25,132 nt of DNA. Source: an uncultured Candidatus Saccharibacteria bacterium. Its GTDB lineage: Bacteria > Patescibacteriota > Minisyncoccia > UBA6257 > 2-01-FULL-56-20. This document shows, one piece after another, positions 4,158 to 21,584 of the stretch. The notes under the pieces are model-generated. The model worked only from the letters and a program-made list of their open reading frames with translations. It was not told the DNA's origin and did no database searches. The position numbers were made by a program, and so were the translations under genes. The stretch lies in contig CAZWBU010000005.1 of assembly GCA_964632585.1 (NCBI GenBank), forward strand, positions 1,209 through 26,340. The letters run 5' to 3'. How positions within the stretch are numbered: the first letter of the stretch is position 1; every line of letters starts with the position of its first letter.

Positions 4158-5108
4158 ATGACCGAATACCCGCTTGCATCTATAATCATTCCGACCTGGA
4201 ACGCCGGCCGCTATGTGGCTGAAGCGGTCGACTCCGCGCTTGCACAAACATATCCGAACTGCGAGGTCATCGTCGTGGATGACGGCTCGACGGACAGTAC
4301 AAAGGCAGTTCTCGAGCCGTACACTTCAGCGAAAAAGATTATCTATATCTATCAAAAAAACGGGGGATTATCTACGGCACGTAATGCTGGTATTCGCGCA
4401 AGCCGCGGCGCCTACATTGCGCTCCTTGATTCGGATGACATTTTTTTATCCGAAAAGATTGCGGAGCAAGTTCAATACCTTGAAACGCATCCCGATTGCG
4501 ATGTGTCATACTGCGATCTCTATCACTTCTGGGACGGCGAGTCGGAGCTTTTGAAACTGAACTACCACTATTATTCTGGCGCAGATGTCTTGCCACATTT
4601 GATCGAAGCGTCGTTTATCGCGCCGCTTTCAGTTGTCTTCCGACGCTCGGTGTTTGAAAGGTTTGGGTATTTTGACGAGAACTTGTGGCGGTCGGAGGAT
4701 TTAAACTTTTGGTTCCGCATCGCGCACGGCGGGGCACGCATCGATTTTTTGCCGAAGATTCTTGCGAAGCTCCGGATGCGGAAAATCGAGAATCTTCAGG
4801 GTGTCGAGAGCCAACCGCAAGTGAAGACGACCATGCTTGAGGTTTTAACTCGTCTTGACAATGCGATGACTCGCGAAGAACACATTCGCTATGACATGGA
4901 CTATCATCTTGCGCGCTATCGCCGGAATATTGGCATCGCCTATCTCATGAATGCGAAAAAAACCGAGGCGAAGCCCTATCTTCTTGCGGGCGACAGCATG
5001 GGGCGAATGCTATGGTTTATGGGTGCGCTTCTGCCCGCTACAATCATTCAAAAATTGCTCGTGAAGTTTTACTACATCCGGCGTTCGCACCGTTTAGAAC
5101 CCGCATGA
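4158..5108 (+). CDS. Glycosyltransferase family 2
   Basis: SIIIPTWN, VVDDGSTD, ARNAG and LDSDD (DxD) motifs. Confidence 0.92.
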   Translation: MTEYPLASIIIPTWNAGRYVAEAVDSALAQTYPNCEVIVVDDGSTDSTKAVLEPYTSAKKIIYIYQKNGGLSTARNAGIRASRGAYIALLDSDDIFLSEKIAEQVQYLETHPDCDVSYCDLYHFWDGESELLKLNYHYYSGADVLPHLIEASFIAPLSVVFRRSVFERFGYFDENLWRSEDLNFWFRIAHGGARIDFLPKILAKLRMRKIENLQGVESQPQVKTTMLEVLTRLDNAMTREEHIRYDMDYHLARYRRNIGIAYLMNAKKTEAKPYLLAGDSMGRMLWFMGALLPATIIQKLLVKFYYIRRSHRLEPA

Positions 5109-5983
5109 AGAACCACCAACCACCAACTACAAACTACAAGCTCTCCGGCGCTCCAATTGTTTCCGTTATCATGCCGGCGTGGAATCAGGCGCGGTATGTT
5201 AGCCGTTCGATCGAGGGCGTGTTAAAGCAGTCGCTTAAAAATCTCGAGCTCATCGTTATTAACGATGGCTCGACGGACAATACCCGAGAGGTTGTTGCGA
5301 GCTTTATGGTGCATGATCCGCGCGTGATTTATTTTGAAAACGACAAGAATCGCGGAATTCCATATACCTTCAATCGCGGGGTCGAGGCCGCCCGCGGAAA
5401 ATACATTGCCCGTGTTGATTCAGATGATGCGTGGATCGGGGACGACAAGCTCGAACGCCAAGTTGCGTTTCTTGAGTCGCATCCGGACTATGTTGGCGTC
5501 GGCGGCGGGATGATCGTTGTCGATCCTGGAGGCAAAGAACTATACCGATATTTTAAAGAAGAAACAGACGAGGCCATTCGCCGCACCGCGCTTGTTACAA
5601 ACCCTATTGCTTCATCTACGGGCCTCTACCGCACGGACGCCGTGCGCCGCGCGGGCGGCTTCAATCTTGGATTGAACTACAACGAGGACTGGGATTTTTC
5701 TTTAAAGACCGGGCTTTTAGGGAAGCTCTATAATTTTCCGGCCTATTTTTCGTATTACACGTCGACGGGGGAGAACCGTTCCTCAAAAGACATGCTTCCG
5801 CATACTCTAAAAGCGTTCCGCGTGATTTGGCGTTATCGCGGAAAGTATCCGGGTTTTTGGCACAGTTTTTTCTTGAACTCGGCGCAACTGTGCTATGCAC
5901 TCATCCCGTTTTGGATTCGCAAGCGCGTACATATATTGCTCTGGCCGGTGAAGAAGTTTTTATCCGGACGGGTTCGGACCTAG
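5105..5983 (+). CDS. Glycosyltransferase family 2
   Basis: SVIMPAWN, NDGSTD and RVDSDD motifs. Start moved from 5012 to ATG 5105, which overlaps the upstream TGA (ATGA). Confidence 0.88.
   Translation: MKNHQPPTTNYKLSGAPIVSVIMPAWNQARYVSRSIEGVLKQSLKNLELIVINDGSTDNTREVVASFMVHDPRVIYFENDKNRGIPYTFNRGVEAARGKYIARVDSDDAWIGDDKLERQVAFLESHPDYVGVGGGMIVVDPGGKELYRYFKEETDEAIRRTALVTNPIASSTGLYRTDAVRRAGGFNLGLNYNEDWDFSLKTGLLGKLYNFPAYFSYYTSTGENRSSKDMLPHTLKAFRVIWRYRGKYPGFWHSFFLNSAQLCYALIPFWIRKRVHILLWPVKKFLSGRVRT
5111..5141 (-). repeat. Heptamer array (CTA-type on +), translated as the N-terminal extension NHQPPTTNYKL
   Basis: Reverse complement reads ..AGCTTG TAGTTTG TAGTTGG TGGTTGG. Confidence 0.7.
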
Positions 5984-6011
5984 TGAGTAGTTTGTAGTTG
6001 GTAGTGAGTAG
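5981..6011 (+). repeat. Heptamer array starting at the GT2 stop codon
   Basis: TAGTGAG TAGTTTG TAGTTGG TAGTGAG TAG. Confidence 0.85.
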
Positions 6012-11158: not shown

Positions 11159-12104
11159 GCGATTCGATGGTCTGTCGGATGCCGGTTTTTAATTCAATCG
11201 TCGGGCGCCACCCGAGAACCTTTTCCGCTTTTCGCGCATCGATCGCGATACGATAAACCTCCCCTTTTCGGTAGGGCGCGTAGATGGGCTTTTGGGTAAA
11301 TCCCGTTGCGCGGGCGACGCCTTCGAAGATCATATTGTCGGTGATGAGTTTGCCCCAGCCGAGATTTACAACCTCGTTTTTGCCCCTCCGGAGCGCGGCA
11401 AGATTCGCACGCACGATTTCAGAGACATGCACGTAATCGCGCGCTTTTGTGCCGTCGCCAAAGATCGTCGGGCGGACGCCGTGCAACATCTGTCCGCCGA
11501 ATATCGCGACGACGCCTGCCTCGCCCTTCGGGTTCTGCCGCGGGCCATAGACATTTGGGTAGCGGAAGATGAAGTAGGGGAAGCTATAGTACTTTGCATA
11601 AAATTTAATGACTTCTTCACCGAGGAGTTTTGAAAGGCCATAGGGAGAAAGAGGCATTGCGGGAGTTGACTCATCGGCGGGGATTTTTTTCGGTTCACCG
11701 TAGATTGCGCCGCCCGTCGAGGAGAAGATGAACTTCCGATGCCTTCCGCGCTTGCCTCGCCGACTTGAGGCGGGACCGTATTCGCCGAAGGAGCGCAGGA
11801 CATTCGCCGTGCCAAGGACATTTGTGGTGTAGGTTGGAATAGGGTCGCGGAGCGATTTTACGACCTCGGCGATCGCGGCGTGGTGGTTTACAACCTCTGG
11901 CCGTTCTTTTTTCATAATTTTGTCCACCAGCTTTGCGTTCCGGATGTCGACTTTATAAAACTTCGCCTTCGGATTTACGTTTTTGCGGAAGCCAGTTTTG
12001 AGATTGTCGATGACCGCGACGTGGTGACCAGATGCGATGTATGCATCAACGATGTGACTCCCAATAAAGCCGGCGCCTCCCGTTACTATAATTCGCTTAC
12101 TCAT
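11151..12104 (-). CDS. galE: NAD-dependent epimerase/dehydratase, UDP-glucose 4-epimerase-like
   Basis: GGAGFIGS, SSTGGAIYG, YGLSK (YxxxK), NVYGPRQ and RDYVHV motifs. Confidence 0.85.
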   Translation of the reverse strand: MSKRIIVTGGAGFIGSHIVDAYIASGHHVAVIDNLKTGFRKNVNPKAKFYKVDIRNAKLVDKIMKKERPEVVNHHAAIAEVVKSLRDPIPTYTTNVLGTANVLRSFGEYGPASSRRGKRGRHRKFIFSSTGGAIYGEPKKIPADESTPAMPLSPYGLSKLLGEEVIKFYAKYYSFPYFIFRYPNVYGPRQNPKGEAGVVAIFGGQMLHGVRPTIFGDGTKARDYVHVSEIVRANLAALRRGKNEVVNLGWGKLITDNMIFEGVARATGFTQKPIYAPYRKGEVYRIAIDARKAEKVLGWRPTIELKTGIRQTIESLT

Positions 12105-13446
12105 AATTTATGAAGAATGATTTTAACGTTTTGGTGATAATTGCCAGATCGAGGATGATTGATCGGTGTTTTAAATAATATACATCGAATGAGAGTTTTT
12201 CAATGACATCTTCGGTCGTTTGGTCATAGCGGTAGTTGATCTGCGCCCAGCCGGTTATACCCGGTTTTATAATGGAGCGGATTTCATAGTACGGGACCTC
12301 TTCGACGAGCTTTTTTACGATCTCCGGGCGTTCTGGTCGGGGACCGACAAAAGACAGGTCACCCTTTGCAATGTTTATGAGTTGCGGTAGTTCATCGAGG
12401 TGTGAAGCGCGGAGGAACTTGCCGATCGGCGTCGAGCGGGGATCGCTTGTGGAGGCCCACTGCGCGCCGTTTCTTTCGGCTGAACCGTCTGGGGCCAAGG
12501 CCTTCATGGAACGGAATTTGTAGAGCGTGAATGGGTTGCCGTGTTTTCCAACACGGATTTGCTTGTATATTGCGGGTCCCGATGAGGTAAGGCGGACGGC
12601 GAGTGCGATCAAAAGTTCGAGTGGCACAAGAAGAACGATGAGCGCGATTGCGCCAACGAGCTCCAAGCCGCGCTTCAGGTCGTCGTAGAAGCGTCGCTCG
12701 CCAATCGCGTGCTCAATGAACCACGATTCGGTGATCTCACGAATCGGTATCTTGCGGAAGACGATCTCATAAAAACTTGAAATATCGCGCACCTCGATGC
12801 CAAGCGCAAGGAGTTCATAGAGCAGTCGGGCGGCCGTTTCATCGTGTTTAAAGGATGCGGGAACGACAATAAGGTTGATGCCGTGTTCGCGCACAAGGCG
12901 TTCAAGATGCTCTGGACTTTGCAGTTCCGTGGGATTCATCCACAGTTTTACTGCGTAGCCGATCTGAGGGTTCGAGGCGATGGTTTCGCGCAGTTCGTGC
13001 GCGCGCTCACTCTTGTCGAGAATGAGTACGCGATTCAATCCTTCTCTGAAGCTCGCGCGGCGGTTGAATGCGTGACGCCACCACGACTCGGCAAGTGCAA
13101 AGATGGCGATGAAGATGAAGAGATTTGTTTTTGGAGTAATGCCGAGGGCAGGGACGAGGTAAAACAGAGCGATCGTAATGAAGGCGTTTACGGCGAGCGT
13201 CGTCGAAAGTGTTTGCAGAAAGTCGAGGTTATTGCGGAGGCGGCGAAGATCGTAGAGGCCTGCAATATAAAATACGAGGATCCAAATAATAAAAATAAGA
13301 GAAAACGGCCCCGCATGTTGTGAGGTGAACTGCTCGTTGAAGTCCAGGCCATAGCGAATGAGGAGTGTCGCTAGGAGCGCGGCATACAAGACGATAATGT
13401 CGCCGATGACGAGGATGGTGATCTTGAATGGATTGGGAATTTTCAT
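12097..13446 (-). CDS. Polyprenyl-phosphate glycosylphosphotransferase (WcaJ/WbaP-like)
   Basis: N-terminal TM helices; KFRSM, LDELPQL, GPRPE and KPGITGWAQI motifs. Confidence 0.92.
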   Translation of the reverse strand: MKIPNPFKITILVIGDIIVLYAALLATLLIRYGLDFNEQFTSQHAGPFSLIFIIWILVFYIAGLYDLRRLRNNLDFLQTLSTTLAVNAFITIALFYLVPALGITPKTNLFIFIAIFALAESWWRHAFNRRASFREGLNRVLILDKSERAHELRETIASNPQIGYAVKLWMNPTELQSPEHLERLVREHGINLIVVPASFKHDETAARLLYELLALGIEVRDISSFYEIVFRKIPIREITESWFIEHAIGERRFYDDLKRGLELVGAIALIVLLVPLELLIALAVRLTSSGPAIYKQIRVGKHGNPFTLYKFRSMKALAPDGSAERNGAQWASTSDPRSTPIGKFLRASHLDELPQLINIAKGDLSFVGPRPERPEIVKKLVEEVPYYEIRSIIKPGITGWAQINYRYDQTTEDVIEKLSFDVYYLKHRSIILDLAIITKTLKSFFINYE

Positions 13447-13556
13447 GTTTAGGATTTAGAACTTAGGATTTAGGACTTGGCAATGTAAGAATAGAAGAAT
13501 AGGAGATGGGATTCTCGAGGTTGGTCTAAGTCCTATTACCTAAGTTCTAAGTCCTG
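13447..13556 (-). repeat. Paired complementary heptamer arrays with no enclosed ORF (empty copy of the 17627-18049 cassette)
   Basis: Minus strand reads TAGAACT TAGGTAA TAGGACT TAGACCA, then about 44 nt, then AGTCCTA AATCCTA AGTTCTA AATCCTA AAC ATG. Confidence 0.88.
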
Positions 13557-14305
13557 CTTCTTATGTCCTTTGAGCTCTTCGTATAGGGTTTGCCGAAGAC
13601 CGTGACCCAGAGGTAATTTAGAGCATAGCGTGCCCCCGTGGCAAGGAGGCCCTCTTTTGCTAGGCGGCGATTGGATGAGGTGACGGTGAACCGATAGTCA
13701 AAGCGCACGCGGCCAATGGTTGAAAGACGCATGGCGGTATCGGTGTCATCACCATAAAATGTGTAGGAGGTGTTGTACCCGTGAATGGCTTGGAGTGCGG
13801 TCTTGCGCATCACAACGTTACCGCCGATGATGAAGGCGCCGCGGCCGAAGATGCGATTGACGAGCGCGATCGGATAAGAAAGAAGATAAAAGACGGTGAT
13901 GAGAACTCTCGCAACACGAGGAGTTTCGGCAAATGTATAGGGACCGCTCAATGCCACGAGATTTGGTTGGCGTTCGAAGGCAGCATATGCTCGGTGGAGC
14001 CATGATGCATCGATCGTGGTGTCGGCGTCAATATTGCCGATGAGGTCGCCAGTCGCGGCACGAAATCCGGTATCACGTGCCTGGTTCGTTCCCTTTCTGG
14101 ATTCATCGATCACCTCGACTCCGGGATAGCGCTCGGCCACAGCGCGGGTCCGATCGGTCGAAGCGTTGTTTACGACGATAATCTCCACGTCGTAGGATGT
14201 GTGCGAGATGGCGCGCATCACCGCGTCGAGACATGCACCGATGAAATCCTCTTCATTATGAGCGGGGATGACAATCGAGAGGCGGGGATAGGTCGACGTG
14301 TCCAT
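13547..14305 (-). CDS. Glycosyltransferase family 2
   Basis: SIVIPAHNEE, VNNASTD and NIDAD motifs. Confidence 0.9.
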   Translation of the reverse strand: MDTSTYPRLSIVIPAHNEEDFIGACLDAVMRAISHTSYDVEIIVVNNASTDRTRAVAERYPGVEVIDESRKGTNQARDTGFRAATGDLIGNIDADTTIDASWLHRAYAAFERQPNLVALSGPYTFAETPRVARVLITVFYLLSYPIALVNRIFGRGAFIIGGNVVMRKTALQAIHGYNTSYTFYGDDTDTAMRLSTIGRVRFDYRFTVTSSNRRLAKEGLLATGARYALNYLWVTVFGKPYTKSSKDIRSRT

Positions 14306-17413: not shown

Positions 17414-17629
17414 ATGGCGAACGTAAAAATTTACAGCACCCCCACGTGTGTCTACTGCAAAATGGCGAAGGATTTCTTCGTGAAAAACAGCGTGCAATAT
17501 CAGGAGTTCAATGTGGCCGAAGATGATGCGGCGCGGGAGGAGATGATCCAGAAGTCGCACCAGCTCGGCGAGATCTTTGTTGGATTTGACCAAAAGGGGC
17601 TGACGAGAGCGCTCAAAATTAAGACCTAG
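17414..17629 (+). CDS. Glutaredoxin/NrdH-like protein, apparently lacking the cis-Pro segment
   Basis: YSTPTCVYC active site and VGFD. QLG is joined directly to EIFVGFD. Confidence 0.8.
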   Translation: MANVKIYSTPTCVYCKMAKDFFVKNSVQYQEFNVAEDDAAREEMIQKSHQLGEIFVGFDQKGLTRALKIKT

Positions 17630-17654
17630 AACTTAGCCAATAGGACTTAGAACG
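17627..17654 (+). repeat. Left heptamer arm of four-helix-bundle cassette
   Basis: TAGAACT TAGCCAA TAGGACT TAGAACG; the first TAG is the glutaredoxin stop. Confidence 0.88.
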
Positions 17655-17655
17655 G

Positions 17656-18027
17656 ATGAATTCGTACAAAGAGCTTATTGTTTGGCAAAAAGCATTCGAT
17701 CTGACAAAAGAGGTTTATCGGCTAACCAGTTTATTCCCTGCATCGGAGTTATATGGATTAACAAGTCAATTGCGACGTGCAGCTGTTTCTATTGTTTCAA
17801 ATATCGCCGAAGGTTTCAGTCGGAAATCGCAACGAGAAACAGTGCAGTTCTTCTCGATCGCGTTTGGATCAACTAGCGAGGTTGAAACTCAACTGTTATT
17901 AGGGAAGGAGATGGAGTTTGCTGCAGTGCATGAGTTCGTTCGAGCTGAAGATCTTTCGCTCCAAGTTCGTAAGATGCTGAATTCAATGTTGAGTAGTTCG
18001 AAGAAGAATACTATTTCTAAGTCCTAA
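17656..18027 (+). CDS. Four-helix-bundle protein (23S rRNA intervening-sequence protein family, Avd-related fold)
   Basis: YKELIVWQKA, FP.SELYGLTSQLRRAAVSI.SNIAEG and AFGS.SEVETQL motifs. Confidence 0.92.
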   Translation: MNSYKELIVWQKAFDLTKEVYRLTSLFPASELYGLTSQLRRAAVSIVSNIAEGFSRKSQRETVQFFSIAFGSTSEVETQLLLGKEMEFAAVHEFVRAEDLSLQVRKMLNSMLSSSKKNTISKS

Positions 18028-18047
18028 ATCCTAAGTTCTAATTCCTA
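18013..18047 (-). repeat. Right heptamer arm of four-helix-bundle cassette
   Basis: ATTTCTA AGTCCTA AATCCTA AGTTCTA ATTCCTA. Contains the ORF stop and ends 5 nt before the trxB ATG. Confidence 0.88.
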
Positions 18048-18052
18048 AATTC

Positions 18053-21551: not shown

Positions 21552-21584
21552 AGAATTAGCGAATAGGGAATAGCGAACAGTGAC
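21549..21584 (+). repeat. Heptamer array starting at the groEL stop
   Basis: TAGAGAAT TAGCGAA TAGGGAA TAGCGAA CAGTGAC. Confidence 0.7.

What the first reader, a model, noticed from the sequence alone, without database searches (positions are those of the whole stretch)
13447..13556. Empty twin of the cassette: same arms, same stop/start anchoring, no gene inside
Seen on the minus strand: the left arm TAGAACT TAGGTAA TAGGACT TAGACCA matches 17627-17654 at 24/28 nt and also begins at the upstream gene's TAG. The right arm AGTCCTA AATCCTA AGTTCTA AATCCTA AA matches 18020-18049 at 29/30 nt and ends 1 nt before the next ATG. Only about 44 nt separate the arms, versus about 365 nt holding the ORF. 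Inference: this is a filled/empty pair, being either a non-autonomous (MITE-like) copy, a scar after ORF loss, or a target awaiting insertion. Near identity across unrelated operons on opposite strands argues for copying of a unit rather than independent slippage.
Basis: partly seen in the sequence, partly recalled or inferred. Interest (0 to 1): 0.78.

Follow-up and report, generated by a model that had tools for sequence, protein, structure and literature searches.

The report
Gene-less twin of heptamer hairpin cassette
A 100-base hairpin built from 7-base repeats fills the gap between two sugar-transferase genes and has nearly the same arms as a nearby hairpin that encloses a small four-helix-bundle gene, which ties ordinary intergenic 7-base repeats to the intervening sequences known from ribosomal RNA.

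Summary
Window 13448-13549 (minus strand) is TAG-heptamer arm, 44-nt loop, CTAA-heptamer arm. It runs from the GT2 stop codon to 1 nt before the sugar-transferase ATG. Its arms match those around the PF05635 gene at 17656-18027 at 24/28 and 29/30.

It is not a lone pair. This 703-kb CPR-like genome holds 63 TAG/CTA heptamer runs and 82 strict period-7 arrays. At least 12 are gene-less hairpins, always with the TAG arm 5' of the CTA arm, set between a stop and a start. Only 2 hairpins of this TAG/CTA type enclose a PF05635 gene.

Congeners have compact junctions at both window sites, so both elements are recent gains. The exact arm 22-mer is amplified only in this genome. The 23S rRNA gene carries gene-less hairpins that share a 16-mer with the arm of a third PF05635 gene.

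Best reading: a gene-less copy of an IVS-like hairpin family, spread by copying, and probably an RNase III substrate and translational insulator (inferred). No transposase, target duplication or ORF remnant was found.

This scan has reported the gene-bearing cassette many times on other DNA. Paired heptamer arrays and the rRNA IVS are in print. Shared arms between gene-less and gene-bearing copies were not found in the papers searched.

The parts
13522..13549 (-). 5' arm of the gene-less hairpin: four TAGNNNN heptamers giving TAG in all three frames. The first TAG (13549-13547) is the GT2 stop codon.
   Evidence: (I3, I4)
13478..13521 (-). 44-nt loop with no ORF and no similarity to the interior of the PF05635 gene.
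   Evidence: (score 9 against a shuffle mean of 9.5)
13448..13477 (-). 3' arm: four NNNNCTA(A) heptamers giving TAA in all three frames. It is G-poor and ends 1 nt before the sugar-transferase ATG.
   Evidence: (I1, I4)
13452..13555 (-). Predicted RNA stem: 4 + 12 + 8 base pairs with a 3x3 internal loop. The outermost pairs reach into the last GT2 codons.
   Evidence: -34.1 kcal/mol, z = -5.8
13547..14305 (-). Upstream gene: family-2 glycosyltransferase, 252 aa.
12097..13446 (-). Downstream gene: Bac_transf sugar transferase, 449 aa, with no SD-like motif upstream.
17623..17652 (+). 5' arm of the filled twin. It begins at the glutaredoxin TAG stop.
   Evidence: (I2, I3)
17656..18027 (+). PF05635 (23S_rRNA_IVP, four-helix-bundle) gene in the loop of the filled twin. 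Its stop lies inside the 3' arm.
   Evidence: (E = 3.4e-36)
18013..18049 (+). 3' arm of the filled twin. It ends 3 nt before the ATG of the thioredoxin-reductase-like gene.
   Evidence: (I1, I2)
21553..21573 (+). Solo TAG-heptamer run directly after the stop of the 552-aa ORF. It belongs to the same grammar but a different unit family.

Best explanation
The element at 13448-13549 is a gene-less member of a genome-wide family of hairpins whose arms are inverted arrays of 7-base units (TAGNNNN on the 5' side, NNNNCTA(A) on the 3' side). It is the same kind of element as the hairpin that encloses the PF05635 gene at 17656-18027, and it shares that element's arm sequence because the arm module was copied within this genome.

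Shown:
- It was gained in this lineage at a junction that is compact in congeners.
- It runs exactly from stop to start.
- Both arms carry stop codons in all three frames.
- The polarity (TAG arm first) is invariant.
- The same kind of gene-less hairpin sits in this genome's 23S rRNA gene as intervening sequences, and those copies share a 16-mer with the arm of another PF05635 gene.

Inferred:
- The element is co-transcribed with the GT2 and sugar-transferase genes and forms a stem of about 24 bp that brings the stop and the start together.
- The three-frame stops end any upstream translation.
- The stem is either cut by RNase III, as rRNA IVS stems are, leaving a short G-poor leader on the downstream gene, or it is opened by the terminating ribosome so that the downstream gene is re-initiated.
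- Either way the insertion is tolerated inside an operon.

How the module is copied is unknown. Help in trans from the PF05635 protein of the filled twin is possible but untested.
For: - Arm identity and chance control.
- Genome-wide counts: 63 TAG/CTA runs against 3-13 for control trinucleotides. The 4-unit pattern gives 81 against 3 for the control. There are 82 period-7 arrays against 0-7 for periods 5, 6 and 8-11.
- Position: about 30 of 63 runs end 1-19 nt before an ATG that opens an ORF. The hairpins at C19, C11, C58, C7, C15 and C43 all lie stop-to-start between co-directional genes.
- Polarity: TAG-then-CTA 12, the reverse order 0.
- Gains: the GT2-transferase junction is at most about 30 nt in 4 congeners. 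The grx-trxB spacer is 4 nt in congener G001, and none of 21 relatives with that junction has a PF05635 gene there. The C19 and C11 hairpins are absent from congeners, and the C58 hairpin is shared with G001.
- Copying: the arm 22-mer with at most 1 mismatch occurs at 5 sites in G000 and in none of 40 relatives. Two 23S rRNA hairpins are nearly identical to each other.
- IVS link: the 23S rRNA gene on C14 and C30 is confirmed by Rfam. An exact 16-mer is shared by 4 hairpins inside the 23S gene, 1 in the 23S-5S spacer, and the arm of the C48 PF05635 gene.
- Arms travel with the ORF: in G004 and G025 the arms are nearly identical while the ORF region is visibly more diverged. The closest homologue, at 69% aa identity, shares the left-arm core.
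- PF05635 flanks across phyla are inverted-complementary in 48 of 80 loci, against 0 in controls, and period 7 dominates.
- An RNase III gene is present.
- Only 13% of genes have an SD-like motif, and 0 of 16 array-preceded genes do.
- Precedent: RNase III cuts the heptamer-bearing 28-bp stem of the Coxiella IVS (PMC4990558).
Against: - No RNA data exist for this organism, so transcription, cleavage and coupling are all inferred.
- No enzyme for copying is identified. No Y1/RAYT transposase was found, and there is no target-site duplication.
- Loops of different copies are unrelated, so only the arms are shared.
- All stem pairs are Watson-Crick, so RNA-level and DNA-level structure cannot be told apart.
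- The genome has more arm families (over 40) than PF05635 genes (4). Some relatives have up to 20 CTA arrays and no detectable PF05635, so the protein is not needed for the arrays to persist.
- The public data for this organism are only low-depth contigs.
Confidence: 0.75

Rival explanations
1. The element is a host cis-regulatory element that evolved in place. The heptamer arrays are binding sites for a host single-strand-binding factor (S1, cold-shock protein or similar) that tunes translation of genes lacking SD sequences. Copies resemble each other because they bind the same factor, not because they were copied.
For: CTA arrays sit 1-7 nt before ATGs in a genome with few SD motifs. Similar proposals exist for TAACTGA repeats (PMC4679880) and for GGGNATC repeats after stops and before starts (PMC4692102). 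Different arm families occupy the same grx-trxB junction in two genera (L022).
Against: The shared string is an ordered series of three different units. It is exact over 22 nt at two sites and amplified only in this genome. More than 40 unit families occur in one genome, which is hard to fit with one factor. The same hairpins occur inside rRNA, where no translation takes place. The elements are absent from orthologous junctions of congeners, which function without them.
Confidence: 0.2
2. The element is a scar: a filled PF05635 cassette was inserted here and later lost its gene.
For: Degraded PF05635 copies exist in relatives (G008 fragments with stops, and a truncated G028 copy). The arms are those of a filled copy.
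Against: The loop has no similarity to the ORF. Loop lengths are bimodal with no intermediates. Inverted arms favour inversion, not deletion. Gene-less hairpins far outnumber filled ones.
Confidence: 0.08
3. The element is an empty landing site into which the gene can later be placed, for example by recombination between matching arms.
For: The arms share 28-37 nt of near identity with the filled copy. A gene-less hairpin occupies the grx-trxB junction in another genus.
Against: In relatives the arms and the ORF are inherited together. The gene-less hairpin in the other genus has unrelated arms. No site was seen in both states within one species.
Confidence: 0.05
4. The element is an assembly artefact: repeat-induced misjoining created one of the two copies.
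For: Arrays coincide with contig ends and gaps elsewhere (C18 end, C48 N-run).
Against: Both copies lie inside a 26-kb contig whose gene order is syntenic with congeners. A contig from an independent study bridges the left arm of the filled copy into the ORF, and no contig skips either element.
Confidence: 0.03

Closest known systems
Intervening sequences (IVS) of 23S rRNA, with or without an S23p/PF05635 ORF (Coxiella, Leptospira, Salmonella; PMC4990558; CPR rRNA insertions, PMC11270868)
   Same: Terminal inverted repeats form a stem of about 24-28 bp. Heptamer repeats occur in the arm. Both ORF-bearing and ORF-less forms exist. This genome's own 23S rRNA gene carries ORF-less heptamer hairpins that share a 16-mer with a PF05635 cassette arm.
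   Different: This element lies between two protein-coding genes, anchored at a stop and a start, not in an rRNA helix. RNase III cleavage has not been shown here.
Paired (convergent) heptamer arrays between aligned ORFs: GGGAATC in Xanthomonas and GGGGAYT in Nostoc (PMC4692102); paired heptanucleotide sites in Geobacter metallireducens (PMC2700814)
   Same: Tandem 7-nt units, often about 4 per array. The G-containing array lies on the coding strand just after a stop, and its complement lies just before a start. Arrays are often paired as inverted repeats.
   Different: Those arrays were read as G-quadruplex or regulator sites and were not linked to any gene family. Here the units carry TAG/TAA rather than G-tracts, and the arms are shared with a PF05635 cassette.
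TAACTGA heptamer direct repeats upstream of start codons in Beggiatoaceae, cyanobacteria and Bacteroidetes (PMC4679880)
   Same: Heptamers carry stops in all three frames. They lie a few nt upstream of start codons, with no SD sequence.
   Different: TAACTGA arrays are almost all solo direct repeats of a single unit (one indirect repeat was reported). Here there are many unit families, frequent hairpin pairing and a fixed arm polarity.
MITEs and REP/BIME elements
   Same: Short, multicopy, intergenic and hairpin-forming elements that are gained and lost between close relatives.
   Different: No target-site duplication and no conserved interior were found. No cognate transposase was found (RAYT not found). 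The arms are tandem arrays, not unique terminal repeats.

Membership tests
rRNA-type intervening sequence (IVS) | Inserted in a helix of an rRNA gene | tested here: not met
   The element lies between GT2 and sugar-transferase genes. Rfam finds no rRNA there. Sister copies with other arms do lie in the 23S rRNA gene.
rRNA-type intervening sequence (IVS) | Complementary termini forming a long stem that encloses the insert | tested here: met
   The arms are 86% complementary over 28 nt (I4). The RNA fold is -34.1 kcal/mol with z = -5.8.
rRNA-type intervening sequence (IVS) | Excised from the transcript by RNase III | not testable with these tools
   An RNase III gene is present at C33:6133-6516. 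No RNA data are available.
MITE (non-autonomous transposon) | Terminal inverted repeats | tested here: met
   (I4).
MITE (non-autonomous transposon) | Target-site duplication flanking the element | tested here: not met
   No direct repeat flanks either copy when the junctions are read directly and compared with congener junctions.
MITE (non-autonomous transposon) | An autonomous partner encoding a transposase, with shared ends | tested here: inconclusive
   The ends are shared with the PF05635 cassette, but PF05635 has no known transposase activity. No Y1 transposase is present in the genome.
MITE (non-autonomous transposon) | Copies homologous along their whole length | tested here: not met
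   Only the arms are shared. The loop is unrelated to the filled copy, and loops differ among copies.
Intergenic heptamer arrays of the Xanthomonas/Nostoc/Beggiatoa type | At least 3 tandem 7-nt units, strongly over-represented compared with other periods | tested here: met
   82 period-7 arrays against 0-7 for other periods. 63 TAG/CTA runs against 3-13 for controls.
Intergenic heptamer arrays of the Xanthomonas/Nostoc/Beggiatoa type | Placed just after stops on the coding strand, with the complement just before starts, between co-directional genes | tested here: met

The most novel reading that the evidence does not exclude
PF05635 four-helix-bundle proteins are sequence-specific binders of heptamer arrays. 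Each acts in trans on gene-less hairpins that carry its own arm sequence, either copying them or controlling their processing. On this reading the gene-less hairpins in operon junctions and in rRNA are the non-autonomous members of one element family. That family would account for much of the unexplained excess of 7-base repeats in bacterial genomes.
Probability: 0.2. Interest if true: 0.85.

Novelty: new variant of a known kind. Interest (0 to 1): 0.58.

Why it matters
Three separate literatures describe pieces of this. They cover rRNA intervening sequences with an S23p ORF, the unexplained excess of intergenic heptamer repeats, and Avd-like four-helix-bundle proteins of unknown role. In this one small genome the pieces meet. 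Gene-less and gene-bearing hairpins share arms in three arm families, and one of those families links an operon-borne gene to gene-less hairpins inside 23S rRNA. That makes one question directly testable: are heptamer hairpins the non-autonomous partners of PF05635 cassettes? It also offers a simple rule for how an insertion can sit between two tightly packed genes without harming either. The rule is stops in all frames, a stem that joins the stop to the start, and a G-poor leader. It matters for annotation too, because these arrays break assemblies and mislead start-codon calls.

Tried and rejected
- Loop against ORF interior: no similarity on either strand, so this is not a recognisable deletion derivative.
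- Target-site duplication: none seen when the junctions were read.
- Intrinsic terminator: none found. Promoter: no hit inside the element (13448-13549); the one weak hit in the scanned region lies upstream, at 13644-13615.
- Rfam at gathering threshold: nothing on the hairpin.
- RAYT/Y1 transposase: not found.
- Reads: only low-depth Logan contigs were available. No contig skipped either element and no mixed alleles were seen, so filled/empty polymorphism could not be tested.
- A 22-sequence alignment was too diverse for the search for related loci. An 11-sequence alignment worked.
- Strict pairing of near-perfect period-7 arrays recovered only 7 pairs because the arms are imperfect. The TAG/CTA detector was more useful.
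- G-U pairs as a strand indicator: all stem pairs are Watson-Crick, so this was uninformative.
- Correlation of CTA-array count with PF05635 copy number in 41 genomes: rho = 0.67, with medians of 18 and 1. This is suggestive only, because related genomes are not independent and only one array flavour was counted.

Full report
**Observation**

Read on the minus strand, window 13549-13448 has three parts: four TAGNNNN heptamers, a 44-nt loop, and four NNNNCTA(A) heptamers. The first TAG is the stop of the 252-aa GT2 gene. One base separates the last heptamer from the ATG of the 449-aa Bac_transf sugar transferase.

The arms match those that bracket the PF05635 gene at 17656-18027 at 24/28 and 29/30. 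With a short inward extension the right-arm match is 37 nt at 92%. Pattern searches with up to 3 mismatches found only these arms in the window, against zero in 100 shuffles.

The two arms are mutually complementary, 86% over 28 nt. The sense RNA folds into a stem of 4 + 12 + 8 bp at -34.1 kcal/mol, z = -5.8. The filled copy folds with the same stem design.

**The element is one of many**

The window lies in a 703-kb, 61-contig, 91%-complete genome of CPR type. That genome has 63 runs of at least 3 heptamers with a fixed TAG or CTA. Twelve control trinucleotides give 3-13 runs. The four-unit pattern occurs 81 times, against 3 for the reversed control. A detector that ignores sequence finds 82 period-7 arrays, against 0-7 for periods 5, 6 and 8-11. 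These fall into more than 40 unit families.

Where both arms pass the strict test, the TAG arm always precedes the CTA arm: 12 against 0. Reading the other strand gives the same order, so the design is strand-symmetric.

About 30 of the 63 runs, read in the CTA orientation, end 1-19 nt before an ATG that opens an ORF. The hairpins at C19, C11, C58, C7, C15 and C43 all run from the stop of one gene to the start of the next co-directional gene.

Because 7 is not a multiple of 3, three TAG units put a stop in every frame. The CTAA units do the same with TAA.

Only 13% of long ORFs in this genome have an SD-like motif. None of the 16 that are preceded by an array has one, and their leaders are G-poor.

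**Filled against empty**

The genome has four PF05635 genes. Two sit in TAG/CTA hairpins with different arm families: C5, which is the window copy, and C18. The other two (C3, C48) sit between inverted arrays of other heptamers.

Sites matching the arm 22-mer of the window pair within 3 mismatches comprise one filled hairpin, about five gene-less hairpins and four solo arrays.

Loop lengths are bimodal, 7-93 nt against 354-362 nt. The loop of the empty twin shows no similarity to the gene. Gene-less hairpins are therefore the common state, not decayed cassettes.

**Gain and loss**

The four congeners keep the gene order GT2b, GT2a, sugar transferase. Their gap is at most about 30 nt and holds no hairpin.

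Glutaredoxin and the thioredoxin-reductase-like gene are adjacent in 21 relatives, with spacers from -1 to 268 nt. The spacer is 4 nt in congener G001, and none of the 21 holds a PF05635 gene. One other genus (G018) has a gene-less TAG/CTA hairpin of an unrelated arm family at exactly that junction.

The C19 and C11 hairpins are absent from congeners. The C58 hairpin is shared with G001 and is degenerate or reduced in G002 and G004.

The arm 22-mer with at most 1 mismatch occurs at five sites in this genome and at none in 40 relatives.

Both window elements are therefore recent gains, and the arm string spread within this lineage.

**Link to rRNA intervening sequences**

Contigs C14 and C30 carry the 23S rRNA gene (Rfam, 1387 bits), which has many insertions and two group I introns. 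At model positions near 160, 284 and 583, and again on C30, the insertions are gene-less hairpins of TTTTCAA-type heptamers.

These hairpins share an exact 16-mer with the left arm of the PF05635 gene on C48. Two of them are almost identical to each other although they sit in different helices. Gene-less heptamer hairpins are thus copied as units. The same element type occupies both rRNA helices and operon junctions.

In Coxiella, a homologous arrangement is cut in mid-stem by RNase III: an S23p ORF, a 28-bp stem and heptamer repeats in the arm (PMC4990558). CPR rRNA genes are known to hold both ORF-bearing and ORF-less insertions, some encoding 23S_rRNA_IVP (PMC11270868). This genome encodes RNase III.

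**Arms and gene travel together**

- In G004 and G025, which belong to different families, the arms are nearly identical while the ORF region between them is visibly more diverged at the nucleotide level.
- The closest homologue of the window protein (G020, 69% aa identity) shares the left-arm core.
- Across 108 cassettes, about 20% of pairs with at least 60% protein identity share arms. Below 50% identity the figure is 0-1%.
- In 80 PF05635 loci from many phyla, the flanks are inverted-complementary in 48, against 0 in shifted controls, and period 7 dominates.
- Among 41 related genomes, CTA-array counts rise with PF05635 copy number (rho = 0.67; medians 18 and 1). However, genomes without the gene can still hold up to 20 arrays, and related genomes are not independent.

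**Mechanism**

Shown: structure, placement, polarity, three-frame stops, recent gain, and intragenomic copying of the arm module.

Inferred: the element is co-transcribed with its flanking genes. The stem places the stop and the start side by side. Stops in every frame end upstream translation. Then either RNase III cuts the stem and leaves a short G-poor leader, or the terminating ribosome melts the outer helix and frees the start. Either route would let such an insertion persist in a 4-13-nt junction.

The copying mechanism is unknown. No transposase, target duplication or shared interior was found.

**Prior knowledge**

Paired heptamer arrays after stops and before starts are described for Xanthomonas and Nostoc (PMC4692102), and paired heptanucleotide sites for Geobacter (PMC2700814). 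Stop-bearing heptamers upstream of starts are described for Beggiatoaceae (PMC4679880). None of these papers links the arrays to a gene family.

Earlier notes of this scan report the PF05635-in-heptamer-hairpin cassette on many other genomes. A later check there found that filled copies within a genome rarely share arms, and that filled/empty sites were seen in only one genus.

This report adds one point. In a single genome, each of three filled copies has gene-less partners with its own arm sequence, and one of those sets lies inside rRNA.

**Limits**

There are no RNA data. The public DNA data are low-depth contigs that neither span the empty element in the listed pieces nor show alternative alleles. 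The genome is fragmented at such repeats, so counts are lower bounds.

Noticed in passing
window 5108-5143 and 5977-6011: Two complementary heptamer arrays (19 nt, 95% complementary) flank a whole GT2 gene in the reverse order. The CTA-type array lies before its start and the TAG-type array after its stop, with 849 nt between them. This is either a gene-enclosing stem or two half-hairpins.
   Followed up: partly
G000 contigs C14:12300-16650 and C30:1-2900 (L185, L215): The 23S rRNA gene is heavily interrupted. It has at least five insertions in the first 600 model positions, two group I introns, a 1.1-kb insertion near the 3' end, and heptamer hairpins in the 23S-5S spacer.
   Followed up: partly
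L021, L025, L027, L029 (grx-trxB junctions of relatives): In L025, L027 and L029 the spacer holds a duplicated 5' end of the trxB-like gene (MYDLIIIGG). In L021, L025 and L027 it also holds a shared GC-rich insert (ggcggcccgcc...ggcgaggctcgcc), and in L025 and L027 the insert is followed by a new ATG. This is a different small element that appears to supply a start codon.
   Followed up: no
G000 C15:1377-1394, C15:2015-2032, C30:1795-1811, C13:14042-14058: A GC-rich palindrome (GCCTGCC..GGCAGGC) abuts several solo heptamer arrays. It is a second repeated module joined to the arrays.
   Followed up: no
L069 (G025), upstream of the sugar-transferase orthologue: Eight perfect ATACTAG units lie directly before the start codon. 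This shows the same grammar in another family of the order.
   Followed up: no
window 17565: A contig from an independent freshwater-sediment study carries a 24-nt in-frame insertion in the glutaredoxin gene and continues through the left arm into the PF05635 gene. A related strain elsewhere therefore also has the filled cassette.
   Followed up: no
G000 C18 end (13256-13276) and C48:4156-4165: Contig C18 ends inside the right arm of its PF05635 cassette, and a 10-N gap abuts the arm on C48. Heptamer arrays break this assembly, so copy counts are lower bounds.
   Followed up: no
G008:C20:1737-2041 (L035): A degraded PF05635 copy, in two fragments with two TAA stops, lies about 1 kb downstream of the trxB orthologue. 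It is an example of cassette decay in a relative.
   Followed up: no
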